A stretch of DNA of 64,000 nucleotides from a virus: the IMG/VR virus record IMGVR_UViG_3300033150_001207, positions 20,204 to 84,203 of that record. One strand, 5' to 3'. The notes under the pieces were generated by a model. The model did not search any database. It saw nothing but the letters and a program-made list of their open reading frames with translations, and was not told the DNA's origin. The stretch's first letter is position 1. Each line of letters opens with the position of its first letter. Below, piece after piece: positions 4,034 to 42,499 of the stretch. Made by a program: the position numbers and the translations under genes.

Positions 4034-4969
4034 ATGAAATTGAGTTACGATAACTACCTCGTTACCGGGGGTGCAGGATTTATTGGCAGCCATCTTGGCG
4101 AAGCAATAGTTAAACAGGGCAAGAAGCTAGTGATCCTTGATAACTTAATAACGGGAAAGAGAGAAAATTTAGAACCGTGGTGGGATGAACAGCTTTGTAC
4201 ATTTGTAGAAGCTGATATTAGCGACTATAATTCAATCCACCCATATTTTGATAGTGTTGATATTGTATTCCATAATGCCGCTTCCAAATGTACCGTATGC
4301 AGAAAAGCCCCAAATACTGATTTAATGGTCAATGCATGGGGTTCGTTAAATGTATTCAGAGCTTCGCAAAGTGCCGGGGTAAAGAAAGTTATTCATGCCT
4401 CCACTGGTTCTACGATGGAAGGTAATCCGAAATCATTCTATGGTGTAAGCAAGCTTGCGGCTGAAAATTACCTTGCTGTTATGCGAGAGTACCATCCCGA
4501 ATTTGTTTATTCTATATTGCGATATTACCATGTCTATGGAACTCGTCAGGATAATAGCGACGAAGGCGGCGTGATACCTATATTTATACGCAATGTTCTC
4601 AATAACGAACCTATTGTTATATTTGGCGACGGTAAACAGGTTAGGCATTTTACTACCGTCGAAGATGTTGTGAAAGCCAATTTATATGTATCCGAGGTAG
4701 ATGAATTTAGCTGGTATCCAGAATCGCCGCTTACTGTAGTATCAGATGTAAAGATTAGTATTTTAGATTTAGCACATTTAATATGTGAATTGATGGGTAA
4801 GCCAGATCATGAGATTATATTCAGACCAGAAAAACATGGTGATGTAAAAAACTTTGAATTTGTCAGAAGCTATAATCTTGATGAATTGGTACGGTTCAAC
4901 AATGACCTCGAAGGCGAGCTTAAAAAAGTGATAAACTGGTATAGAGAAAAATACAAATCAAGGCGATAA
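4034..4969 (+). CDS. NAD-dependent NDP-sugar epimerase/dehydratase (extended SDR)
   Basis: LVTGGAGFIGSH Rossmann motif, HAST, YGVSK (YxxxK), RYYHVYG, IFGDGKQVRHF. Confidence 0.95.
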   Translation: MKLSYDNYLVTGGAGFIGSHLGEAIVKQGKKLVILDNLITGKRENLEPWWDEQLCTFVEADISDYNSIHPYFDSVDIVFHNAASKCTVCRKAPNTDLMVNAWGSLNVFRASQSAGVKKVIHASTGSTMEGNPKSFYGVSKLAAENYLAVMREYHPEFVYSILRYYHVYGTRQDNSDEGGVIPIFIRNVLNNEPIVIFGDGKQVRHFTTVEDVVKANLYVSEVDEFSWYPESPLTVVSDVKISILDLAHLICELMGKPDHEIIFRPEKHGDVKNFEFVRSYNLDELVRFNNDLEGELKKVINWYREKYKSRR

Positions 4970-4991
4970 AAAAACAATAGCGGGAAAAAGA

Positions 4992-6161
4992 ATGTCCGAC
5001 TTTTACTGGCGTAATAAAGTCTTCAAGAGCGAACTTGGAAAATCCGCATGGGTATATAAAATTATACCAAAAGAATTAACCGTGAGGAAAACCATTGAGC
5101 CTGGACTCATAGAACCGCTCACTGAACATTATTTAAAAACACCGTTTTATGAAGTCAATATTGTTCCATACCATGAAGCACAAACGCAAGAAGTGGCTGA
5201 TTTTGTTGCCAAAGGTTGCAAATCAAAAAATATAAGTAAACAAAAGTTCTCGAAACTGTACTACGAGACATTAAAAAGAGTTATAAAAGAGAACTGGGAA
5301 TCGGATAAGTTTCATGTGCTATTACAGTCATCTGGGTATGATTCACGTCTTATCTCCATGGCAATCAAAGACAATCATAAAGAACTTGGGGATAGATGGC
5401 TCGGTGATATAATAATAGTTGAGTCTGGTAGTGAATTCAAGCTATTTAAAAAAATAATGAAACATATGGATTGGAAGCCTTATCAGTATACGGTATATAA
5501 CAACGGTGATAATCCAGATTTGAACATAAATGAATATTACTCTGATAATTTCGATTTCAAAAAAGCATGGAAAAGATTGAATGGATACTCAAGCTATCCG
5601 ATGAATCAGTATGATTTGATTGTTGACTGGTTGTACGATACCAACATAATACCAGAAAACAGAGAGTATCAGGGTTGGTCTGGTTATGGTTCAAACGAGA
5701 CAACATTAGCAATTGCATGGAATATGGGTATTCCATGGTATTTCAGACATTATTATTATCACGGGTTATCGCATTTTCCGAGAGAGAACTGGGTATTTCC
5801 GTACTTGCATTTTGATATGCTGGATTTATTACAAACTTATGGGCAGAATTACGCAAAAGAAACATTTAGCAAAAGGGCTGGAATACCAGAATTGGTGCTT
5901 AATGAATTATTTCCTGAATTGCAAAAGATACCCAAAATGTATCTTGAAGATTTAGTGAACGCTGGATATAGGACAATTTCGGACAGCCTATTGGAACAGG
6001 TTAGCAAAGATTACTTTGCATCGTGGTATGGGAAAAACGTAAACCCGAATGTCAAACCACAGAAACAGATTGATTATTTATCATGGTGGGTTTGCTGGAG
6101 CATGGCGAGTTTTTGTGAGTATTTATTGGAAAACAATTACAACATATTAATAGGACAATAA
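4992..6161 (+). CDS. Asparagine-synthetase-like N-type ATP pyrophosphatase (amide ligase domain, no glutaminase domain)
   Basis: PP-loop LLQSSGYDSRLI (cf. SGGxDS) and WSGYGSNE (cf. LSGEGADE); no N-terminal Cys Ntn domain. Confidence 0.65.
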   Translation: MSDFYWRNKVFKSELGKSAWVYKIIPKELTVRKTIEPGLIEPLTEHYLKTPFYEVNIVPYHEAQTQEVADFVAKGCKSKNISKQKFSKLYYETLKRVIKENWESDKFHVLLQSSGYDSRLISMAIKDNHKELGDRWLGDIIIVESGSEFKLFKKIMKHMDWKPYQYTVYNNGDNPDLNINEYYSDNFDFKKAWKRLNGYSSYPMNQYDLIVDWLYDTNIIPENREYQGWSGYGSNETTLAIAWNMGIPWYFRHYYYHGLSHFPRENWVFPYLHFDMLDLLQTYGQNYAKETFSKRAGIPELVLNELFPELQKIPKMYLEDLVNAGYRTISDSLLEQVSKDYFASWYGKNVNPNVKPQKQIDYLSWWVCWSMASFCEYLLENNYNILIGQ

Positions 6162-6176
6162 CGCAGGGGAAAAATT

Positions 6177-7169
6177 ATGTTTGATGTATTAGCACTCTGT
6201 CAATTCGATTGGGCAAACACAGCTTATAAGTTTTGCCAGTGCTTACAAACACTGGGTATTAACGTAATCGGGTATAAGGGGCAACCTCATGAATTTAATT
6301 ATGTCAATCAGTTGCCTATTCATCTGGAACTTAATAAAGGTATAATTGGCAATAAACATCCGCTTGTCGTATTCGCACCCGGCATGAAAGGGCTTGTTGA
6401 AAAGGCCAAAGTTGTACATTTCTTTGCAAGTACATTTATTGAAACGGGTGTTGATTTATCAAATAAGAAAATAATTGCACAACATGGCGGTACAACTTAC
6501 AGGCTTGATCCAAAAGCAAGTAACGAGGTGTTCAATCCGATGGTTACTGCTACAATAATACAGTACCCAACGTTACTTAACAAGGGCGCAAAGAATGAAC
6601 ACTTAATTTATTATCCAGTTGATACCAATTTCATACAGCCAGATTTTGAACGCAAAGGCAAAAGTAAACTCATAGTGGGACATTTTCCGAGTACATGCGA
6701 TTCAAAAGGTACTGAAACCATTGTGAATGTAATGGACAAATTGAAGGACAAATTCGAGTATATAGGTGTACGCAAAGATATTCGCATCGATTGGTTGAAC
6801 AATCTCGAAAGGGTAAACAAATGCGACATATTAATAGAAACAATTAAGCCAGAGTTGATGGGAAAAGAATTTGGAAGCTGGGGAAATGCCTGCCTGGAAG
6901 CTGCCGCTCTCGGTAAAATAGTGATAACCAATGATAATTATCAAGATATATATAAACGGGAATATGGCAATTGGTTCGAGCCTATGATAGCCAATGACGG
7001 TGAACAACTCGAACAAAGATTACTCGAATTGTATGATTATATGGATAAAGAAATATTCCATAAGAAACAAGCATCACGGGAATGGGTAGTACAATGCCAT
7101 TCAATATCTGTTACTGCCGAACGCCTGTGGGATAAAGCTTATCAATATCTAAACATCGGGAGAAAATAA
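6177..7169 (+). CDS. GT-B (GT4-like) glycosyltransferase
   Basis: HFPS..DSKGTE, CDILIE...WGNACLEAAALGKIVITND donor-binding motif, C-terminal SREWVVQCHS helix. Confidence 0.85.
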   Translation: MFDVLALCQFDWANTAYKFCQCLQTLGINVIGYKGQPHEFNYVNQLPIHLELNKGIIGNKHPLVVFAPGMKGLVEKAKVVHFFASTFIETGVDLSNKKIIAQHGGTTYRLDPKASNEVFNPMVTATIIQYPTLLNKGAKNEHLIYYPVDTNFIQPDFERKGKSKLIVGHFPSTCDSKGTETIVNVMDKLKDKFEYIGVRKDIRIDWLNNLERVNKCDILIETIKPELMGKEFGSWGNACLEAAALGKIVITNDNYQDIYKREYGNWFEPMIANDGEQLEQRLLELYDYMDKEIFHKKQASREWVVQCHSISVTAERLWDKAYQYLNIGRK

Positions 7170-8234
7170 ATGAATGTAAAACCGAAAGTAACAATGATTA
7201 GCTTACATTGCTGCATAAGAGTTGTCAAAGAAGCAATAGCACTAAAGAATCATGGGTATGAGGTGCACGGAATACTCGGTGCATTGGCAATGCGTGATGT
7301 ATTCGATACAATCACCATATTTACGGATGGGGATAGTTTACAAAAAGCGGTTAAAGATTCAAATGCTGATATATTTCATGTGCATAATGAACCAGATTGG
7401 ATTGTACCATTAATAAAATACCCAGCGAAGAAAAAACCTATTATCTGGGATATGCACGACCCTGAACATTTACGTGATAACAATCCGAAACCAGAAGAAA
7501 CGACATCTGTCATGCTTGCGGATGGTATTGTACACGTAAGTGAACCATGTATGAAAGCACTACATAAAGCGTATGAATATAATAAACCAGAATGCGTAAT
7601 ACATTCAATGGTAAATGAAAAGTTTATGCCGCCAGATAATGCAATTATTCCAGACCCAAGTTTTAAATCAATTGTATATGAAGGGGGTATAGACGATACC
7701 GAAAAACCTGTTATAATCGGCGAAGACCCATCGGGTTCAGATAAAACGCTAGCCAGAGTAAATTTAAGATATATTATTGATATAGTAAAAGCTTTTTGTG
7801 TTTCTGGGTACAATTTTACAATTCTTTGTGCAAAGAATCTTAAAAATAATAATTATCAGAATGCAGGCGCTTTTGTTGTAAAACCAGTGCCATATGGTCA
7901 GATGTTGTTAGGTTTGCGTTCTCATGGATTAGGACTTAACGGTTCCCCATACAATTCAAGACTGTTGCAATATGCTTCACCGAATAAATTATGGGAATAT
8001 ATAAGTCAGGGTGTTGTGCCAGTGTGTTTTAATACAGACGAAAGTTTCAGACTTTGTGAACAGTATGATATCGGATTAAAGTTGACTTCACTTAACAATA
8101 TAGAAAGCCAGTTGACTGAAGCGCCGCAAAAACGAAAGAATCTGCTTAAAGTAAGAAAAGAATTCACAATGGAAAGTGAAATACCGAAGCTGATGAGGCT
8201 GTACGAAAAAGTATTGAGTAATGAAAAAACATAA
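7170..8234 (+). CDS. GT-B (GT4-like) glycosyltransferase
   Basis: ADIFHVHNEPD, PIIWDMHD, IVYEGG, ASPNKLWEYISQGVVPV. Confidence 0.88.
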   Translation: MNVKPKVTMISLHCCIRVVKEAIALKNHGYEVHGILGALAMRDVFDTITIFTDGDSLQKAVKDSNADIFHVHNEPDWIVPLIKYPAKKKPIIWDMHDPEHLRDNNPKPEETTSVMLADGIVHVSEPCMKALHKAYEYNKPECVIHSMVNEKFMPPDNAIIPDPSFKSIVYEGGIDDTEKPVIIGEDPSGSDKTLARVNLRYIIDIVKAFCVSGYNFTILCAKNLKNNNYQNAGAFVVKPVPYGQMLLGLRSHGLGLNGSPYNSRLLQYASPNKLWEYISQGVVPVCFNTDESFRLCEQYDIGLKLTSLNNIESQLTEAPQKRKNLLKVRKEFTMESEIPKLMRLYEKVLSNEKT

Positions 8235-8244
8235 TCCTTATAGT

Positions 8245-8326
8245 AAAACCACCCATTCCGTACGTTACGTACTCACCAATTGGGTGGGGAATAGGTGGCG
8301 TCCTGTGTGTTAGATAAAACCTAACG
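8245..8326 (-). ncRNA. Candidate small structured RNA, copy A (homologue of 38056-38131)
   Basis: Minus strand: GUUAG/CUAAC hairpin, ACACAGGAC linker, 12-bp stem GCCACCUAUUCC/GGAAUGGGUGGU enclosing two small hairpins, then a U run; own promoter; homologous copy with compensatory changes. Confidence 0.65.
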
Positions 8327-8332
8327 AAAGTA

Positions 8333-8361
8333 AATATACACAATGCAAAGCAATAAGTCAA
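8333..8361 (-). promoter_or_regulatory. sigma70-type promoter TTGACT-17-TATATT driving RNA copy A
   Basis: -35 at 8356-8361, -10 at 8333-8338, exact 17-bp spacer, AT-rich upstream; same layout as 38022-38050 and 57833-57861. Confidence 0.75.
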
Positions 8362-8414
8362 TAAAAAATAATATGTTTGTTTTATTTAATTTTTATTAAC
8401 ACAAGGAGAAGAAA

Positions 8415-8780
8415 ATGTTACTAACAGCGAAAGAGCGTATTATTCTGTTATCTATTTTACCGAACGAAAACACCAACTATATCACACTCAAAGTTGTGCA
8501 TGATTTAAAAATGAATGCAGCTCTCAGTGATGAGGAATTTGATAAAGTAGAGACTAATGAACAGAGTACAAGAATTGAAGGTTTGAATAAAATTCCAGAT
8601 AAGGAAATCAAGATAGGAAATAAAGCGAAAGAAATAGTTCTTAACAGTCTTGTCAAATTAGATAAAGCGAATAAACTGACATTTGATCATTTCACGTTAT
8701 GTGAAAAATTTAATCTGGGTAAAAAATTAGAAGAATTAAAAAGAAAGGAAAATGAAGATCGAAATAACAGTAAGAAATAA
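8415..8780 (+). CDS. Hypothetical protein
   Basis: 121-aa ORF with AAGGAG RBS. Confidence 0.7.
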   Translation: MLLTAKERIILLSILPNENTNYITLKVVHDLKMNAALSDEEFDKVETNEQSTRIEGLNKIPDKEIKIGNKAKEIVLNSLVKLDKANKLTFDHFTLCEKFNLGKKLEELKRKENEDRNNSKK

Positions 8781-8873
8781 CAATGTAACTTTTAACCCAA
8801 ACGGATACTTAATAGTAAAGCCCGTGTAATTGTTTACATGGATACTATGCTATTAAACCCAAAGGAGTGAAAA

Positions 8874-10079
8874 ATGAAAGATCCACGGGAAGAACAGGCA
8901 GAAGAAGCGGTAAAAAGAGGGGAAGAAATTCAAGCTAAACTTTATAATGTTAGCAAAGAGGAAACTGTCCCTGTAGAAGCTTCTAAATCTCAGGAAATTA
9001 AACCTGATGAGAAAAAGCCAGAAAAGCAAGCCGAGAAGTCTGGCAAAAAGAGTAAAGAGGGCATTGAGCCTACTCAGGAATCCAAATCTGGTAGTAAAAA
9101 ACCAGAGGAAGAAACCTGGAAAAGCAAGTTTGATACTTTGCAGGGTAAATATAATGCCGAGATTGCTAAACTCAAAGCCAGAGTAGAGGAAGCTGAAAAG
9201 AGAGCAAGTGAGTGGAGAGATACTGTTGCTGAGATAGGGAAGTATAAAGCTACCGAAGCAAAGCAACGGGAAAAACCAGAAAAAGTTCCAGAAATTAAAG
9301 CACCAAAGATTGATTCTGTTGTTGCGCAACCGCAAAAGCACGTTACTGATGAGGACCTAGAAGATTACGGTCCTGAGCAGTATAATTATGTCAAGCGTGT
9401 TGCTCAAGAGGTTGTCGATAACGCATTGTTCAATTTCAATAAGGCTATTGGCGATGTTATTGAGAAACGGTTCAATCAAATCGAGGGAAGAATTGCTCCT
9501 GTCGCTGATGATTTAAAAACCGTTAAAGCGACACAGGTAAAATCAAGGGAAGATAAATTCTGGGAGGATATAGATAGATTGTGTCCTGATTTACAGCAAT
9601 ATAACTATGATCCTGCTTTTAACGATTGGCTTGACCAACCGTCTGTTGAGGCTGGTTTTAAACGTAGAGAGTTGCTCAATGATGCTTTCTACAATCTTGA
9701 CGCTAACCGTGTTGCTCGACTTTTCAATGCATTTTTAAATAGTTCGCAAGTAAATAAACAGGTTACTACTCAGCCTGAAAGTGTTGCGGTGAGCGAACCT
9801 GTTACAGAGCAATCGGTAGCAGTTCCATCTGAGCCAGAGACACCAGTTGCTGGCAAACAAGTACCTACTGTAGACATTGAGGACTTGATTTCCCCGGGTG
9901 TGTCAAAAGCTGGGCAGTCAGCAATAGCTGTGGCAGAAAGCGATACCCCGCCTTTTAGTATAAAAACGTGGGAAAAAGCTAAGTCAGATTGGAATAATAA
10001 GAGAATATCTCTCGAAGACTACGAAAAGATTCATGCCGAGTTCGACGCCGCATTAAGGGAAGGAAGGGTAGTACCATAA
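8874..10079 (+). CDS. Capsid scaffolding protein
   Basis: E/K-rich coiled coil, WKSKFDTLQGKYNAE, DPAFNDWL, C-terminal AALREGRV; directly before the capsid gene. Confidence 0.8.
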   Translation: MKDPREEQAEEAVKRGEEIQAKLYNVSKEETVPVEASKSQEIKPDEKKPEKQAEKSGKKSKEGIEPTQESKSGSKKPEEETWKSKFDTLQGKYNAEIAKLKARVEEAEKRASEWRDTVAEIGKYKATEAKQREKPEKVPEIKAPKIDSVVAQPQKHVTDEDLEDYGPEQYNYVKRVAQEVVDNALFNFNKAIGDVIEKRFNQIEGRIAPVADDLKTVKATQVKSREDKFWEDIDRLCPDLQQYNYDPAFNDWLDQPSVEAGFKRRELLNDAFYNLDANRVARLFNAFLNSSQVNKQVTTQPESVAVSEPVTEQSVAVPSEPETPVAGKQVPTVDIEDLISPGVSKAGQSAIAVAESDTPPFSIKTWEKAKSDWNNKRISLEDYEKIHAEFDAALREGRVVP

Positions 10080-10098: not shown

Positions 10099-10734
10099 AT
10101 GGCTGTTTACAACCGAGCTCAGGGTATGCCAAATTATTCCGCAGATAGCGGTGGAAACTTTATTCCTGAACTGTGGGCGCCCCGTATGCAAATCAGGTTT
10201 TATAAAGCCAATGTATTCAGAGCTATTTCCAATAATAGTTATGAAGGAGAGATTAAGCAATTTGGCGACACGGTTCATATAAACACATATCCTGACATCG
10301 ACATTTTCGATTATGTTAAAGGTCAAAAACTTCCTATTCAAACACCAAGCTCCACTCCTTCAAGTCTTACTATCGATAAGGGTAAGGCTTTCAACTTTTT
10401 AGTTGATGATGTGGACAAGGTACAGTCAAGACCCGATCTCACAAAAGAGTTCGGTGATACTGCCGGGTTACAATTGGCAGAGGAAATAGACAAGGATGTT
10501 ATTCAAGGTGTTTATTCCGATGCTGATTCCGACAATGTTGGTGCGACTGCTGGTGCAGAATCAAATTCCTATGATATGGGTGCTGCGTCTGCATACGAAA
10601 GTCTCACCAAGACCACAATTCTTGACTATATCGTTGACATGGGTTCTATTTTGGATGAACAGAACGTTCCTAATGATGGCAAGCGCTGGGTTGTTTTTAC
10701 ACCCTGGGCTGCTGGACTCATTAGAAAATCGGAT
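10099..10734 (+). CDS. Major capsid protein, exon 1 (212 codons)
   Basis: GNFIPELWA, YEGEIKQFGDTVHI, LTIDKGKAFNF, LDEQNVPNDGKRW; joins exon 2 as ...IRKSD|LKDVSMTGD to give 312 aa. Confidence 0.9.
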
Positions 10735-11661
10735 TCAAAAAGGGTCCCCTGCGTTAGTAATATCGCAGTGTAAATCAGGTGAATTGCTGGAATACTGAAA
10801 TGTAAATCAGCAGCCAAGCCCTTAAATGGGAAGGTCCAACGACTAATTCCTGAGTCTTAAAAAGTCTAAACTTTTATGTCGGAGACTTAAAATGAACAAA
10901 TATGATAGGGGAGTATTAATTGGTATGGCTCTTGGGGATGGATATATAAAAGTTAAAAGTGATGCTGATAGAATCAAAAAAAGAAACCCTTCGGCACAAA
11001 TGTCTTTTAGTCATAGCATAAAACAAAAAGAATATGCTCAATACAAAGTAGATAGATTGAATAAAATATTTGGTGGAAATGCTACTTTGAGAACTGGGGT
11101 ATATAAAAGTACAAACGGCGAAAGCTATAAAATATGTTATGCAAATAAGAGTAATCCATATTTTAAAGTGTTAAGAAGAATGCTTTATAAAAATGGTCAA
11201 AAATATATAACAAGGCATGTACTTAATATGTTAAATCCAGATGGTATTGCAATATGGTTTATGGATGATGGTAGCCGTAGGGCAAACAAGAATCTTGATG
11301 GTAAAATATCGTCAGTAGCTTTAACAATAAGTACGTGTTGTTCACGAGAAGAAGTTGACTCTATAATTGACTATTTTAATGAAATATATGGAATAGGGTT
11401 TAAACCAGCATTACACAAAAGAACTAGTTTATGGTCTGTAAGAGCCAATACATATGACTCGAAAATGTTGGCAAATCTTATAATGCCATATATGATTGAT
11501 TCTATGAAATACAAACTATCATTTGTTACAAAACTCAGGGAACACGAGCTCCTGAAGTCCAATAATCAGTTATATATTGTTGGATTATGAGATAGTCTAA
11601 ACTTACGGAAATAGAAACCGTAAGAAGTTTAGGATAAAGAGCCTAAACGGTAATAAAATTG
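10735..11661 (+). mobile_element. Group I self-splicing intron in the major capsid gene
   Basis: P1 GGAUUC/GGGUCC with U10734.G wobble; P2 CUGCG/CGCAG; P3 UCAGG/CCUGA; P/Q UUGCUG/CAGCAG; R GUCCAACGACUA; S GAGAUAGUC (P7 GACUA/UAGUC); P9 hairpins CUUACGG/CCGUAAG and GUUUAGG/CCUAAAC; terminal G11661; splicing restores the frame. Confidence 0.93.
10892..11590 (+). CDS. Intron-encoded double-motif LAGLIDADG homing endonuclease
   Basis: Motif 1 VLIGMALGDGYI, motif 2 GIAIWFMDDGS; K-rich, AT-rich; lies between P3' and P7' (P8 loop). Confidence 0.92.
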   Translation: MNKYDRGVLIGMALGDGYIKVKSDADRIKKRNPSAQMSFSHSIKQKEYAQYKVDRLNKIFGGNATLRTGVYKSTNGESYKICYANKSNPYFKVLRRMLYKNGQKYITRHVLNMLNPDGIAIWFMDDGSRRANKNLDGKISSVALTISTCCSREEVDSIIDYFNEIYGIGFKPALHKRTSLWSVRANTYDSKMLANLIMPYMIDSMKYKLSFVTKLREHELLKSNNQLYIVGL

Positions 11662-11964
11662 CTGAAAGATGTTTCCATGACTGGTGATACTGTATCACCG
11701 CTTCGTAATGGTAGAATCGGTATGATTAATAACATGAACATTCATGTTTCCAATAATGTACTTTCTACCACCGACGGTGGAACCACTGTCTGGTATATGC
11801 TTTTTGGTCATCCATTAGCGATTTCATTCGCAGAACAACTTGTCCAGACCCGTGCAATTCAGGCACCCGACACATTCGGATATTACATCAGTGGTCTCCA
11901 TGTTTATGGATACGACGTTGTTAAACCCGAAGCTTTAGGGTATCTGTATGCGGCGAAAGGCTAA
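11662..11964 (+). CDS. Major capsid protein, exon 2 (100 codons)
   Basis: LRNGRIGMINNMNIHVSNN, GHPLAISFAEQ, GLHVYGYDVVKPEAL: typical capsid C-terminus. Confidence 0.9.
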   Translation: MKDVSMTGDTVSPLRNGRIGMINNMNIHVSNNVLSTTDGGTTVWYMLFGHPLAISFAEQLVQTRAIQAPDTFGYYISGLHVYGYDVVKPEALGYLYAAKG

Positions 11965-38021: not shown

Positions 38022-38050
38022 TTGACATATTACAACACTTATAGTATATT
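38022..38050 (+). promoter_or_regulatory. sigma70-type promoter TTGACA-17-TATATT driving RNA copy B
   Basis: Consensus -35 at 38022-38027, -10 at 38045-38050, 17-bp spacer. Confidence 0.8.
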
Positions 38051-38055
38051 ACTTT

Positions 38056-38131
38056 CGTTGGTCTTCCAACACACGACATGCCACCCACCCCTACCCCATT
38101 GATTGGTACGTACAATCGGGATGGGTGGCAC
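38056..38131 (+). ncRNA. Candidate small structured RNA, copy B (homologue of 8245-8326)
   Basis: GUUGG/CCAAC hairpin, ACACGACA linker, UGCCACCCA/UGGGUGGCA stem enclosing ACCCCAUUG..GUACGUA; begins at the predicted +1. Confidence 0.65.
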
Positions 38132-38161
38132 AGTAACTTTAGCAGAAAGAGGTGATTTAAA

Positions 38162-38374
38162 GTGGCAAGGAAAAAATTATGGATACAGGACGCTATCAAA
38201 GCAGAAGGTAGTTTAACGAGGTCTGCAAGAGCATCTAACGCATTAAAGAAAGATGGAACTATTAAAGTATCATGGTTACGAGAACAGGCGAAAAAGGGTA
38301 ATTCAACCATTGCCAAGCGTGCAAGATTGGCGCTAACCTTGAGAAAAATGCCCAAAAGAGGTAGAAAAAAATAA
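38162..38374 (+). CDS. Small basic phage protein (WIQ.AIK..G.L...KRARLA.TL type)
   Basis: GAGGTG RBS, GTG start; motif recognised from other phage late regions. Confidence 0.7.
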   Translation: MARKKLWIQDAIKAEGSLTRSARASNALKKDGTIKVSWLREQAKKGNSTIAKRARLALTLRKMPKRGRKK

Positions 38375-38393: not shown

Positions 38394-38594
38394 ATGAAAG
38401 AGCAATTTTCAGAAGGCGATAAAGTTCACATAACGCTCAAAGGTATAGTTGTAGAACTTGATGAAGGATATTATACCAAGGAATACAGCGAAGATTGTCA
38501 ATGGTATAATGTGTATGTACCAGAAATAGATGATGTTGTTACGGTATCAACTTCTAATGACGGCGGAAATATAAAACTTGAAAAAAGAGATTGA
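38394..38594 (+). CDS. Small SH3/KOW-like hypothetical protein
   Basis: FSEGDKVHI..KGIVVE...YNVY. Confidence 0.5.
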   Translation: MKEQFSEGDKVHITLKGIVVELDEGYYTKEYSEDCQWYNVYVPEIDDVVTVSTSNDGGNIKLEKRD

Positions 38595-39064
38595 TAAACC
38601 AGAGGGAAAACGAAGAAATGAATAATAATCCTGGATTAATATCTCGTGTAGGTTTGGAAATAATAAAAGAACATGAGGGTTTTAGGCAATATCCGTATAA
38701 ATGCAGTGCAAATAAAACTACAATAGGCTACGGGCACAACCTTGATGATAGAGGTATTTCTAAAAAAATAGCAGAGATGATATTCAAAGAAGATATAAAC
38801 GTTGCCATCGATGACGTATTTGAAATATTTCCCGATTTCCATAAGTTCACCGAGAACCAGAAAATTGTACTTGTTGACATGATGTTCAATCTCGGTATAA
38901 TTCGCTTCAGAAAATTCAGAAAAATGATAAGAGCAATAAAAAAGGGTGATTGGAAAAAGGCGATTATCGAAATGAGAAATTCACGATGGTATTCTCAAGT
39001 AACAAATCGGGTAGAGGACTTGATTGATTTGCTAGAGGAAGACTTGCAAGAAACGGAGAGTTAA
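38591..39064 (+). CDS. Endolysin, GH24 T4-like lysozyme (ATG start probably 38618)
   Basis: HEGFRQYPYKCSANKTTIGYGHNL (E-x8-C-x5-T), DMMFNLG, EMRNSRWYSQV..R. Confidence 0.93.
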   Translation: MINQRENEEMNNNPGLISRVGLEIIKEHEGFRQYPYKCSANKTTIGYGHNLDDRGISKKIAEMIFKEDINVAIDDVFEIFPDFHKFTENQKIVLVDMMFNLGIIRFRKFRKMIRAIKKGDWKKAIIEMRNSRWYSQVTNRVEDLIDLLEEDLQETES

Positions 39065-39541
39065 ATGGGTATATTAAATAAAATAGTTAATTTACTTACC
39101 GGCGATTTCGGGGCAAAAATCGTTGGCGCTATCAGGGATTATTTTCCGCCTTCTCTTTCGGATGCGGAAAAGCGAGATTTTGAATTGAAGATTATGGAAA
39201 TCACACAGGCTCATGAGATTGAACTTTTAAAAGAATTGAATGTTGCGGAATCTGAATTCAATCAGAGAATCAAAGAGCTTGAAGGAACAGCATCCGATTT
39301 GAGGCAAATACCTGTGCTTGGTTCGATTATTTTGTTCATGAGAGGATGCCAGCGCCCGGCGTTTGGATTCTTTACGCTTGCGATGGATTGCCTGGTGTTC
39401 GGCGGATACTGGACAATACAGGAAAATTCACGAATAGAAACTGCATTTCTTGTAATAAATTTGCTGGTCTTAGGTTTTTTGTTCGGGGAACGGGCTATCA
39501 AAAATGTAATACCATTATTTGAAAAATATATGAAAAAGTAG
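39065..39541 (+). CDS. Holin (3TM/GTA-holin-like)
   Basis: Follows the endolysin; RG..RP then two TM helices and LVLGFLFGER. Confidence 0.75.
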   Translation: MGILNKIVNLLTGDFGAKIVGAIRDYFPPSLSDAEKRDFELKIMEITQAHEIELLKELNVAESEFNQRIKELEGTASDLRQIPVLGSIILFMRGCQRPAFGFFTLAMDCLVFGGYWTIQENSRIETAFLVINLLVLGFLFGERAIKNVIPLFEKYMKK

Positions 39542-39994: not shown

Positions 39995-40273
39995 GTGATA
40001 GTAATGGGTTTGTACGATACGGTCAGCAGACTTAACTTACAAATCAAGTGTATTGCTCACGATGAACCGACAATGAAACATTACAATATTGGCGATGAAA
40101 TACCATTACAGGATGGTGTTTGCATTTGTTATGGGGGTTGGTTTACGGTCAATAGTGGAAAAGTTCGTGATGCTGGCAAAGAGATATTCACAAAGTATGG
40201 CGGTAAACTTGATGGCGATGAAATCATAAGTGCTCTGAATCCTGTGTTTATTGTTTTAAATGGTATAAAATAA
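39995..40273 (+). CDS. Hypothetical phage protein
   Basis: MGLYDTV...QIK...M..Y.IGD pattern; AGGTG RBS. Confidence 0.55.
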   Translation: MIVMGLYDTVSRLNLQIKCIAHDEPTMKHYNIGDEIPLQDGVCICYGGWFTVNSGKVRDAGKEIFTKYGGKLDGDEIISALNPVFIVLNGIK

Positions 40274-40274
40274 T

Positions 40275-40348
40275 GGGGGTGACAGAGGTTCAATAAAATA
40301 AAGGAAATTTCACTTGTTTAAACACGCGTTCGAGTCGCGTCATCCCCA
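40275..40348 (+). ncRNA. tRNA-like RNA resembling an isolated tmRNA tRNA-like domain
   Basis: Acceptor GGGGGUG/CAUCCCC+A; stemless D region ACAGAGGUUCAA; short AAAUAA/UUGUUU stem; T arm ACGCG-UUCGAGU-CGCGU; no anticodon arm, no encoded CCA. Confidence 0.6.
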
Positions 40349-40569
40349 TCGAATGGCTTGTTTGTTGTATGCAGAATGGATTAAGTAAGTGGTAATAGTA
40401 AATTCCTGGCTTTTATGGACGCATAAACCAGTGGGAACGATAGGGTTTTGATAGAATACCTACTCGCCCATCAATGCTCATATTACCATTTGGAATATTG
40501 AGATCGAGAGACGGTATGCCGTGATGTTTGCCGTTTCTTGCAATTGTATATCACGAAAAGGGAATATAA

Positions 40570-41218: not shown

Positions 41219-42499
41219 ATGAGTAACCATTATAAATTACCTGATGATATTCTCTTCGAGCAATTCCGCAAAATAATCCTCGAATATCCTGATATAAGCG
41301 CAGATAAATACGACAAACTACAAGTTCCAAATAAGCCGCCACGTACAACATTGCGGCGTCGCTTTGGTGAATGGCAAAATATAAAAGCAATGGCGCTCGG
41401 CGGCGGCGATGTAGAGATTATTGTAGAAAATGTGCGACTGGCTAAACAAAAACAGCGGTTTGAAGACAGAAACAGAATCGAGCGTAAAAGTTTCCGCCAA
41501 TATTGCCGTATTGAAAATGCTGTCGTAGAACTTAATAAAAAATTTATTGATCTGCTCGAACACAACAGCCTCAAAAGATTTGTCAAGCACTTTAAACCGA
41601 GTAAACCAATAGATGAAAATGCTGTCGGTCTTTTGCACTTTACGGATGCTCATTTTAATGAACTTGTTGAACTCGCAAATAATAGGTACGATTTTGTTAT
41701 AGCAAGTAAACGCTGTAAAAAGTTGGTTAGAAAAGCAAAGCAATATTTTAAGCTCTTTAATATAAAGAATATTCTGTTTGCAATGACGGGAGATCTGATT
41801 AACAGCGATCGCCGCTTGGATGAACTGCTCAGCCAGGCGACTAATAGAAGCAAGGCTATGTTTCTTTCTGTGGAAATAATACAACAAATGTTGCTTGATT
41901 TAAATTCGGATTTCAACGTTACCGTTGCGTGCGTAACGGGTAATGAATCGAGGATACCGAATGATATTGCGTGGACAGATATAGTGGTGACCGATAACTA
42001 TGATTTTAGTATATTTAATATTTTACGATATCTGTTCAAAGACTGTAAGGGTATAGACTTTAATATTGGTGATAGTTACTCAGAACAGGTAATAAGCGTT
42101 GCTGGACAAAATGTGCTTCTCATTCACGGCAACCAGATAAGCACTAAAATTGAAGAATCGATACAGAAAATTAAAGGTAAATGGGCAGCAAAAGGTGTGA
42201 TTGTCGATTTCGTGATATGCGGGAACGTGCACAGCTGTCGCATAGGTGATACATATGCAAGGGGAAGCTCTGTCGTGGGGGCTAATGCATATTCAGAGGA
42301 GGGACTTCAACTAACCTCACGTGCCAGTCAAAACATCCATATATTTTTTCCAGATAAAACACGAGACTCAATTCGTATAGATTTACAGGATGTATCAGGT
42401 GAAGAAGGATATGATATCAGCAGGGAATTGGAAGAATATTGCGCAAAAAGCGCCGAGAAACTACACAAACCTATAACCATATTTAAAATACAAATATAA
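41219..42499 (+). CDS. Calcineurin-like metallophosphoesterase with N-terminal HTH
   Basis: TDAHFNE, TGDLI, TGNESR, IHG, GNVH; N-terminal PPRTTLRRRFGEWQN helix motif. Confidence 0.8.
   Translation: MSNHYKLPDDILFEQFRKIILEYPDISADKYDKLQVPNKPPRTTLRRRFGEWQNIKAMALGGGDVEIIVENVRLAKQKQRFEDRNRIERKSFRQYCRIENAVVELNKKFIDLLEHNSLKRFVKHFKPSKPIDENAVGLLHFTDAHFNELVELANNRYDFVIASKRCKKLVRKAKQYFKLFNIKNILFAMTGDLINSDRRLDELLSQATNRSKAMFLSVEIIQQMLLDLNSDFNVTVACVTGNESRIPNDIAWTDIVVTDNYDFSIFNILRYLFKDCKGIDFNIGDSYSEQVISVAGQNVLLIHGNQISTKIEESIQKIKGKWAAKGVIVDFVICGNVHSCRIGDTYARGSSVVGANAYSEEGLQLTSRASQNIHIFFPDKTRDSIRIDLQDVSGEEGYDISRELEEYCAKSAEKLHKPITIFKIQI

What the first reader, a model, noticed from the sequence alone, without database searches (positions are those of the whole stretch)
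8245..8361. Twin promoter-driven small RNA genes with covarying structure (copy A, antisense within the late operon)
Seen: the reverse complement of 8245-8361 aligns end to end with 38022-38131, 30 kb away. Shared blocks in order: TTGAC.TATT, GTATATT (17-bp spacer in both), ACTTTCGTT, AACACAC, GCCACC.A, ACCC.ATTG, GTACGTA, CGG.ATGGGTGG. The promoter spacer has diverged while the -35/-10 boxes are kept. The 5' hairpin shows an A-U to G-C compensatory swap (GUUAG/CUAAC vs GUUGG/CCAAC) and the long stem a U.G to C-G change. Copy A has no credible ORF behind it, ends in a U run, and points against the late operon about 10 nt from the GT stop. Inference: a standalone ~80-nt phage ncRNA family held in two copies under structural selection and made by host RNA polymerase. 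Possible roles are a decoy for a host RNA-binding or defence protein, an antitoxin mimic, or a packaging/regulatory RNA. I do not recognise it as a known family.
Basis: partly seen in the sequence, partly recalled or inferred. Interest (0 to 1): 0.82.

Follow-up and report, generated by a model that had tools for sequence, protein, structure and literature searches.

The report
Promoter-linked structured RNA repeat in phage
An uncultured 84-kb phage carries three diverged copies of an about 80-base two-hairpin element, two of them directly behind strong host-type promoters, which is probably a small regulatory RNA module with no relatives found elsewhere and no function shown.

Summary
The reverse complement of 8245-8361 aligns with 38022-38131 (71% over 115 nt, E 2e-11 within the genome; 0 of 500 shuffles reach the score).

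New here:
- A third, promoter-less partial copy lies outside the window, in an iteron-rich control region.
- The two promoters belong to a phage-wide class, TTGACA-N17-TATATT (9 exact copies against about 0.05 expected), so the promoter reading is strong.
- Copy A is followed by UUUU and no gene, and sits at the 3' edge of a lineage-specific sugar cassette. Copy B has no U run and is the 5' leader of a small basic protein and lysozyme operon.

No Rfam family matches. No homologue turned up in IMG/VR, metagenome or genome pattern scans, or in 34 related phage records. Covariation therefore rests on three paralogues only (3 of 16 pairs change on both sides), which is weak. The folding strand is ambiguous and no expression data exist.

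Best reading (0.4): a cis-acting promoter-proximal RNA module, with copy A ending as an about 81-nt antisense RNA. Rivals are a trans-acting sRNA, a PeSL-like DNA cassette and decaying duplicates. It is real and orphan, but of moderate interest.

The parts
8356..8361 (-). Copy A, -35 hexamer TTGACT
   Evidence: member (one mismatch) of the phage's TTGACA-N17-TATATT promoter class
8333..8338 (-). Copy A, -10 hexamer TATATT, 17-nt spacer
8245..8325 (-). Copy A, predicted about 81-nt RNA (inferred start G8325, 8 nt after the -10; end in the U run)
   Evidence: R1 109 bits, E 1.1e-26; MFE -32.1 kcal/mol, z -3.66. The start and end are inferred, not measured
8309..8325 (-). Copy A, hairpin P1 (GUUAGGU / UUU / AUCUAAC)
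   Evidence: the A-U pair here is G-C in copy B (columns 10/20)
8248..8299 (-). Copy A, long hairpin P2. A 12-bp closing helix (8299-8288 with 8259-8248) encloses the C-rich block CCCCACCCAAUUGG and two small hairpins
8245..8248 (-). Copy A, UUUU directly after P2 (weak intrinsic-terminator tail UUUUACUAU), 11 nt from the GT stop codon at 8232-8234 on the + strand
   Evidence: The terminator scan did not flag it, because that scan needs a loop of 3-8 nt
38022..38050 (+). Copy B promoter, TTGACA-17-TATATT (11 of 12 to consensus)
38057..38130 (+). Copy B, transcribed two-hairpin element: P1 38057-38070; P2 38079-38091 with 38118-38130. No U run follows
   Evidence: MFE -31.5, z -3.32; 97.5 bits, E 1.2e-23
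38149..38374 (+). Shine-Dalgarno GAGGTGA and a GTG-started 70-aa basic protein, the first gene behind copy B. It is followed by a 66-aa ORF, a lysozyme (38591-39064) and further + strand genes up to 42499
   Evidence: phrog_15706, PF25632 E 1.4e-6; PF00959 E 3.4e-15

Best explanation
**What it is.** An orphan promoter-plus-leader cassette of one phage lineage. A host sigma-70-type promoter of the phage's own TTGACA-N17-TATATT class is fused to an about 80-nt transcribed element. That element has a hairpin at or next to the 5' end (P1), a CA-rich linker (AACACA), and a long hairpin (P2). P2's 5' strand and inner loop are C-rich (CCACC, CCCnACCC, ATTG) and its 3' strand is G-rich.

**How I think it works.** It is a cis-acting, promoter-proximal RNA module. 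The nascent RNA folds at once and is recognised by one common partner. That partner could be the transcribing RNA polymerase itself, as with HK022 put RNA, or a termination, antitermination or other RNA-binding factor. The partner then sets the fate (elongation, termination, stability) of transcripts begun there.

**The three copies.**
- In copy B the module heads the mRNA of a small basic protein and the lysozyme cluster.
- In copy A the same module is followed by UUUU and no gene, so it ends as an about 81-nt RNA antisense to the intergenic part of the late operon.
- Copy C keeps only P1, the linker and the C-rich block, in the early control region.

**Shown.** The repeat, the promoter class, the fold potential, the pair-preserving changes and the gene context.

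**Inferred.** Transcription starts and ends, the strand that matters, and any partner or effect.
For: - **The repeat is far beyond chance.** A-B, A-C and B-C each have 0 of 500 shuffles reaching their score. The model R1 finds exactly 3 sites in the genome.
- **The promoter class is real.** There are 9 exact TTGACA-N17-TATATT sites, all reported intergenic or nearly so apart from copy B, which my crude ORF map masks. Each has A/T-rich upstream DNA, one lies ahead of the terminase gene, and copy A adds a tenth with one mismatch. The same class occurs in relatives G001-G003.
- **The copies look old and constrained.** Unconstrained parts are near baseline: spacer 8 of 17, upstream 17 of 40, P1 loop 2 of 7. 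Hexamers, stems and short single-stranded islands are kept.
- **Stems are preserved.** All 6 differences in paired columns keep pairing. 3 of 16 pairs change on both sides and 95.7% of cells are paired, against 30-50% when the partner is slid.
- **The C-rich block matters on its own.** AACACA, CCACC and CCCnACCC..ATTG survive in copy C although its 3' half is different.
- **The consensus fold is better on the promoter strand.** -23.1 against -18.6 for two copies, and -17.2 against -14.9 for three.
- **Copies A and B differ exactly in the U run**. That fits one terminated copy and one read-through copy.
- **There is a precedent.** HK022 putL and putR are about 70 nt, have two stem-loops, share sequence similarity, and lie just behind PL and about 270 nt behind PR (PMC9378689, passages read).
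Against: - **No homologue outside this genome.** The tests were pattern scans with model filtering of IMG/VR, metagenomes (50/51) and genomes (61/62/63, truncated at 120 rows). I also searched 90 loci of related phages, 1.18 Mb, and the whole records of 34 relatives (4, 30, one counted twice). No independent covariation test is therefore possible.
- **The covariation control is weak.** 19 of 500 shuffles reach the score, and the alignment was fitted to the model.
- **The strand is ambiguous.** Copy B folds at -35.4 on the opposite strand against -31.5, and copy C at -38.7 (z -4.0) against -27.1 (z -1.5).
- **Copy C departs from the pattern.** It has no adjacent promoter of the class, and its P2 closing helix has a C.C mismatch.
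- **Nothing to override.** No terminator-like site lies between copy B and its first gene. The only + strand terminator-like sites between copy B and 42499 are two overlapping ones at 39344-39364, inside a gene. A put-like function therefore has no obvious intergenic terminator to override.
- **No candidate partner found.** No antiterminator or RNA-binding family appeared among the 30 ORFs scanned with Pfam.
- **The single-stranded islands need not mean RNA.** Their conservation could also reflect DNA-level recognition.
Confidence: 0.4

Rival explanations
1. Trans-acting small RNA. Copy A makes a free, terminated RNA of about 81 nt that acts in trans. It would act by base pairing through the single-stranded linker or C-rich loop, or as a mimic of the copy B leader (and copy C) that titrates whatever binds them. 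That would couple lysis-operon expression to early or late transcription.
For: - Copy A has a class promoter, no ORF behind it, a 5' hairpin and a terminal hairpin plus UUUU, which is the usual anatomy of a bacterial sRNA.
- It resembles the copy B leader over its whole length.
- Self-complementary words (CCAATTGG in A and C, GTACGTAC in B, GTACGT..ACGTAC in A) could allow RNA-RNA contacts. These words are not enriched genome-wide.
- Virulent phages do make abundant sRNAs and early antisense RNAs in structural regions: PAK_P3, PMC4933390 (passages read).
Against: - No convincing target was found. The duplex scan of 5' regions of all called ORFs gave only long, gapped pairings, and top hits partly reflected the copies themselves.
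- The U tract is only 4 U.
- The RNA does not overlap any coding region or ribosome-binding site on the other strand, because it ends 11 nt from the GT stop.
- There are no homologues and no expression data.
Confidence: 0.25
2. A DNA-level regulatory or recombination cassette, analogous to the PeSL elements of T4-type phages. It would be a conserved block of about 100 bp made of a strong sigma-70-like promoter with A/T-rich upstream DNA and a G/C-tract stem-loop. Such blocks are spread by, and serve as sites for, homologous recombination that shuffles accessory gene cassettes. Any RNA made would be incidental.
For: - Copy A lies exactly at the 3' junction of a four-gene sugar cassette (4034-8234). 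That cassette is absent between the portal gene and the homologue of the 121-aa protein (p121, the ORF at window 8415-8780) in the complete relative G003, and has no tblastn match in G001 or G002.
- PeSLs are described as sigma-70-like promoter plus A/T-rich upstream plus stem-loop, often polyG/polyC, conserved over about 100 bp and mostly beside variable ORFs, with a few in virion modules (PMC2839356, passages read; PMC4122927, abstract).
- The fold is about as good on either strand.
- Copy C sits among iteron-like and palindromic repeats next to an ORF with a Recombinase-domain match.
Against: - In PeSLs the stem-loop lies at or upstream of the start site and acts as terminator for upstream genes. 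Here both hairpins are downstream of the start, and neither works as a terminator for the gene-sense strand, since no U run follows on the + strand at copy A.
- Only 2 of the 10 class promoters carry the element.
- The copies are 71% identical, too diverged for efficient homologous exchange now.
- Paired double changes in the stems are expected for a folded single strand, not for a duplex protein site.
- No second element flanks the left side of the sugar cassette: R1 finds nothing else in the window.
Confidence: 0.2
3. Decaying duplicates of one promoter-leader with no present function of their own. The leader of the basic-protein and lysis operon was copied twice. Copy A lost its gene and copy C lost its promoter and 3' half.
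For: - Copy A has no gene and copy C is partial.
- The element is confined to one genome.
- The downstream words TTTA..A.AA.G are weakly shared after the RNA in A and B.
Against: - Divergence is strongly uneven. The spacer and loops are near baseline, while hexamers, stems and islands are kept.
- All six stem differences preserve pairing.
- The copy A promoter is intact although it faces the late operon.
- No remnant of the 70-aa gene lies behind copy A.
Confidence: 0.1

Closest known systems
HK022 put RNAs (putL, putR), cis-acting antiterminator RNAs
   Same: About 70-80 nt with two stem-loops. There are multiple similar copies in one phage genome, placed just behind host-type promoters (one copy further downstream), and made by host RNA polymerase (PMC9378689, passages).
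   Different: - No sequence relation was shown.
- The host, the RNAP contact and any antitermination are untested.
- One copy here is antisense with a U run directly after stem 2.
- No intergenic downstream terminator needs overriding.
- The phage is a distant relative of Rhizobium, Pelagibacter and Roseobacter podophage portals, not a lambdoid.
PeSL (promoter-early stem-loop) cassettes of T4-type phages
   Same: Repeated composite blocks of about 100 bp: a strong sigma-70-like promoter, A/T-rich upstream DNA and a G/C-tract stem-loop. One copy sits at the edge of a variable gene cassette.
   Different: PeSL stem-loops lie at or before the start site and terminate upstream transcription. Here the hairpins are transcribed leader. 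There are only 3 copies, one of them antisense, and no sequence similarity was tested or expected.
Phage-encoded sRNAs and early antisense RNAs in structural modules (for example PAK_P3 sRNA1, sRNA2 and asRNAs)
   Same: Short non-coding transcripts of a phage, some antisense within the late region, proposed to tune late-gene expression (PMC4933390, passages).
   Different: Those were found by RNA-seq, whereas this element is a prediction. PAK_P3 asRNAs lie within genes, whereas copy A lies in an intergenic gap and has a sense-oriented twin used as a 5' leader.
RNA anti-CRISPRs (Racr, solitary repeat units)
   Same: A promoter-driven small hairpin RNA in a phage genome. Copy B gives a weak cmscan alignment to CRISPR-DR15. 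The Racr concept comes from PMC10651486 (abstract seen in the listing).
   Different: The match is 13.9 bits against a gathering score of 36, with a 24-nt insertion. No host array is known, so this is not supported.

Membership tests
Any Rfam 15 family | Covariance-model score at or above the family's gathering score | tested here: not met
   0 matches in the whole window at gathering level. In E-value mode around both copies the best hits are 13.9-16.1 bits with E 4.5-5.9, all far below gathering
HK022 put RNA | About 70 nt, two stem-loops, more than one similar copy, behind early host-type promoters | tested here: met
   compared with the description in PMC9378689. This is a resemblance of layout only
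HK022 put RNA | Sequence or structure homology to putL or putR | not tested
   No put sequence or model was at hand. I did not verify whether Rfam 15 holds one. No Rfam family matched at all
HK022 put RNA | Factor-independent suppression of downstream terminators through the beta' zinc-binding domain | not testable with these tools
   This needs transcription assays. The scan found no intergenic terminator downstream of copy B
PeSL cassette | Strong sigma-70-like promoter with A/T-rich upstream region, repeated in the genome | tested here: met
   9 exact sites plus copy A of TTGACA-N17-TATATT, with A/T-rich upstream DNA
PeSL cassette | Stem-loop placed between, over or upstream of the promoter boxes or just before the start site, acting as terminator for upstream genes | tested here: not met
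   Both hairpins lie downstream of the inferred start. The definition is from PMC2839356
PeSL cassette | Flanks variable or orphan gene cassettes | tested here: inconclusive
   Copy A abuts a sugar cassette missing in relatives. Copy B and copy C show no such junction, and there is no partner element on the other side of the cassette
Intrinsically terminated bacterial-type sRNA | Own promoter, no ORF, terminal G/C-rich hairpin followed by a U tract | tested here: inconclusive
   - Copy A has a promoter and no credible ORF, but only 4 U after a branched hairpin, and the terminator scan did not flag it.
- Copy B has no U tract and runs into a gene.
- Copy C has no promoter of the class
Racr / CRISPR repeat mimic | Close similarity to a CRISPR repeat family | tested here: not met
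   CRISPR-DR15 at 13.9 bits against a gathering score of 36, E 5.7
tRNA / tmRNA-like | Cloverleaf recognised by ARAGORN | tested here: not met
   0 genes in the window

The most novel reading that the evidence does not exclude
The element is a protein-independent, polymerase-modifying or termination-controlling RNA of the put type, in a phage lineage unrelated to lambdoids, and it is used in two modes. As a leader (copy B) it licenses expression of the basic-protein and lysis operon. As a free antisense twin (copy A) it competes for the same partner. The ratio of the two RNAs would then time lysis-gene expression relative to late transcription that runs over, and occludes, the copy A promoter.
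Probability: 0.1. Interest if true: 0.75.

Novelty: new member of a known kind. Interest (0 to 1): 0.4.

Why it matters
Cis-acting RNAs that reprogramme RNA polymerase without proteins are known from very few phages, and the functions of phage sRNAs are mostly unknown.

This would be a compact, testable example: about 80 nt, two strong promoters, with one terminated and one read-through copy in the same genome. It could show how a phage that relies on host polymerase with near-consensus promoters throughout its genome still controls its lysis cluster and antisense transcription.

As it stands, though, it is a single-genome prediction from an uncultured phage, with no host, no transcript data and no relatives. 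Its value is as a lead, not a result.

Tried and rejected
**Known RNA families.** Rfam at gathering level found nothing in the whole window, and E-value mode around both copies gave only sub-threshold hits. ARAGORN found nothing.

**Homologue searches, all negative.**
- The INPHARED phage collection gave no match in near mode with 7000-9500 or in distant mode with copy B.
- IMG/VR pattern 1 (the P1 motif) returned 85 loci. The best non-self model hits were 22.5 and 21.2 bits, in coding-looking DNA without promoters.
- IMG/VR pattern 2 (linker plus C-rich block) returned 8 loci, none matching the model at the pattern site. One locus, from a contig of similar length (84,332 bp), was read and is GC-rich coding DNA.
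- IMG/VR pattern 3 (the 3' half) returned 84 loci. The single model hit (E 0.053) lay away from the pattern site.
- The metagenome pattern returned 6 loci with 0 model hits.
The script found 121 pattern hits, of which I read only the 5 in loci under 50% GC. The model was run on 100 of the 120 loci and gave one E 0.61 hit, not at a pattern site. The test for a host look-alike is therefore incomplete.
- Single-protein searches for related loci found no relatives.
- A portal-profile search gave 80 loci. The model found nothing in those 80 plus 10 whole-genome pieces, 1.18 Mb in all. It also found nothing in the whole records of 4 and then 30 relatives.
- Syntenic intergenic gaps in G002 and G003 hold ordinary hairpins and nothing alike.
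- A promoter-driven terminated RNA in G001/G002 is not significantly similar to A, B or C: 58, 40 and 108 of 500 shuffles reach the score.

**Other checks that led nowhere.**
- Sequencing runs: none was listed and no RNA holder was listed.
- The target search by duplex energy was not informative.
- No remnant of a paralogue of the 70-aa gene lies behind copy A.
- An inversion-site or terminal-inverted-repeat reading was considered and rejected by reasoning only. The 30-kb segment holds essential head and tail genes, the repeats are 71% alike, and a third copy exists.
- A restriction-site cluster reading was rejected, because GTAC, CAATTG and TACGTA occur at expected frequency.
- Supplementary tables of PMC4933390 and PMC2839356 were not seen.

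Full report
**What is there.** The window is bases 20204-84203 of an 84,203-bp IMG/VR virus record with a 114-bp terminal repeat. The genome is 37-38% G+C. Its + strand block runs from the terminase and portal genes to an exonuclease at 42499. Minus-strand replication-type genes follow.

Within the genome the match has E 2.2e-11 (71.3% over 115 nt). Its local alignment score of 95 compares with 20.0 +/- 3.9 for 500 shuffles, none reaching it.

**A third copy.** A search of the whole genome found a further match at genome 5997-6061. The covariance model R1, built from copies A and B, extends it to 6008-6114 at 30.3 bits.

This copy C shares several parts with the others:
- P1, identical to copy A's;
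- AACACA;
- CCACC;
- CCCCACCCCAATTGG.

Its 3' half is different: an unrelated 8-bp hairpin and a weaker closing helix. A-C and B-C are also beyond all 500 shuffles.

Copy C lies in an about 1-kb non-coding control region. That region holds four copies of a GGAATAGTCTACTGTAG-like word and several GTGTAAATATTTACAC palindromes. An ORF with a Recombinase-domain match lies nearby.

**The promoters are real-looking.** A generic consensus scan finds no more promoter-like sites than shuffles do (71 against 68.7 +/- 8.4). The exact string TTGACA-N17-TATATT, however, occurs 9 times in the genome, always behind A/T-rich DNA. Eight of the nine fall in DNA that my crude ORF map calls intergenic. The ninth is copy B, which spurious ORFs mask. 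From base composition I expect about 0.05 such sites (my arithmetic).

Copy B is one of the nine. Copy A has TTGACT. One of the nine sits ahead of the terminase gene at the head of the long + operon. The relatives G001, G002 and G003 carry 5, 4 and 2 exact sites of the same kind.

The leaders behind the other eight promoters are unrelated to the element, and R1 finds only three sites. So the promoters are generic to the phage, while the transcribed about 80 nt is specific to A and B (and C).

**Anatomy.** With the usual spacing, the start falls on G8325 in copy A and G38057 in copy B, the first base of hairpin P1. This is inferred.

- Copy A folds as P1 (7 bp), a 9-nt linker, and a 12-bp helix P2 enclosing CCCCACCCAAUUGG and two small hairpins, followed by UUUUACUAU. 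MFE is -32.1, z -3.66, with 0 of 200 shuffles as good.
- Copy B folds as P1 (5 bp), a linker, and P2 (9+3 bp). MFE is -31.5, z -3.32. It is followed by CACAGUAACUUU, a GAGGUGA Shine-Dalgarno and the GTG start at 38162.

Behind copy B come a 70-aa basic protein (phrog_15706; PF25632), a 66-aa acidic ORF, a lysozyme and further genes up to 42499.

Behind copy A there is only the opposite-strand end of a glycosyltransferase gene. I found no credible ORF and no remnant of the 70-aa gene.

**Selection.**
- Between A and B, paired columns are 26 of 32 identical, and all six differences keep a standard pair.
- Unpaired columns are 34 of 57 identical.
- The promoter spacer is 8 of 17 identical, upstream DNA 17 of 40, and the P1 loop 2 of 7.
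- On the three-copy alignment, 3 of 16 pairs change on both sides and 95.7% of cells pair, against 30-50% when the partner is slid.
- Even so, 19 of 500 column shuffles reach the covariation score, the alignment was fitted to the model, and the structure came from these sequences.

This is suggestive, not proof.

**Strand.** The consensus fold favours the promoter strand: -23.1 against -18.6 for two copies, and -17.2 against -14.9 for three. Copy A alone agrees (-32.1 against -26.0). Copies B and C alone fold better on the other strand: -35.4 against -31.5, and -38.7 against -27.1. Promoter orientation is the main argument for the sense strand.

**No relatives.**
- Rfam gives nothing.
- Three IMG/VR pattern scans, one metagenome scan and one truncated genome scan, each filtered with R1, gave no homologue (50/51, 61-63).
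- The nearest phages by portal protein are 56% and 50% identical.
- Neither their whole records, nor 30 more distant ones, nor 1.18 Mb of related loci contain the element.

**Context of copy A.** In the complete relative G003, the homologue of the 121-aa gene follows the portal gene after about 1.4 kb. G001-G003 gave no tblastn match to the epimerase, the two middle genes or the glycosyltransferase. Copy A thus sits at the 3' junction of a lineage-specific sugar cassette (4034-8234).

**Interpretation.** Several facts have to be explained together.
- Both class promoters are intact.
- The hairpins are preserved.
- Short single-stranded islands are conserved, even in copy C, which lacks the G-rich partner strand.
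- A and B differ in the U run.

These are best explained by an RNA module read by one common partner at the start of transcripts (confidence 0.4). HK022 put RNAs give the nearest layout precedent. A Rho-type or other termination control on the C-rich stretch is an equally open variant: the first two-thirds of the RNA has C 16-20 against G 5-7.

I found no antiterminator or RNA-binding family among 30 ORFs scanned. No intergenic terminator lies downstream of copy B. The mechanism therefore remains inferred.

The rivals are:
- a trans-acting sRNA or mimic from copy A (0.25; precedent PAK_P3);
- a PeSL-like DNA cassette (0.2);
- decaying duplicates (0.1).

**Verdict.** The element is an orphan candidate RNA module of a known general kind, worth an experiment if the phage or a surrogate system becomes available, but currently confined to one metagenomic genome.

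Noticed in passing
L002 1512-1618 (= genome 6008-6114, + strand; outside the window, about 14.1 kb before its first base): This is the third, partial copy of the element (P1, linker, C-rich block). It lies in an about 1-kb non-coding region with four GGAATAGTCTACTGTAG-like repeats and several GTGTAAATATTTACAC palindromes. This is likely the early control or origin region.
   Followed up: partly
window 57861 (-), 38022 (+), 8361 (-); L315 5505 (-), 10068 (-), 10366 (-), 14652 (-), 15199 (+), 17817 (-), 19035 (+): The phage has a family of promoters with the exact form TTGACA-N17-TATATT behind A/T-rich DNA (9 exact sites plus copy A). The same form occurs in three related phage records. This suggests the whole genome is read by host polymerase.
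   Followed up: yes
L184 4275-4395 (+) (relative G002; the same sequence is in G001): A class promoter is followed by an about 75-nt hairpin RNA with a clear U-rich terminator, and then at once by a second TTGACA promoter, in the divergent control region. This is an sRNA-like gene that is not significantly similar to the element studied here.
   Followed up: partly
window 38874-38901 (+): A perfect 12-of-12 consensus promoter (TTGACA-16-TATAAT) lies inside the lysozyme gene.
   Followed up: no
whole genome (G000): GATC is strongly under-represented (69 seen, 258 expected from a Markov estimate). The genome also encodes Dam-like, two N6_N4, and MT-A70 methyltransferases, several of them behind class promoters.
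   Followed up: no
window 8161-8241 (+): There is a weak hammerhead-like match (RAGATH-1, 15.4 bits against a gathering score of 56.3, E 4.5) with the CUGAUGAG and CGAAA cores, inside the 3' end of the glycosyltransferase gene. It is probably chance.
   Followed up: no
window 10731-11670 and 40261-40350: Earlier first-stage notes propose a group I intron in the capsid gene and a tRNA-like mini-domain. The whole-window Rfam gathering scan and ARAGORN returned nothing at either place. That neither confirms nor excludes them.
   Followed up: no
L315 7227-7646 (-): A 139-aa ORF matches only the 'Recombinase' domain of serine recombinases (E 2.4e-6). The neighbouring small ORFs have no match. It may be a split or degraded integrase next to the control region.
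   Followed up: no
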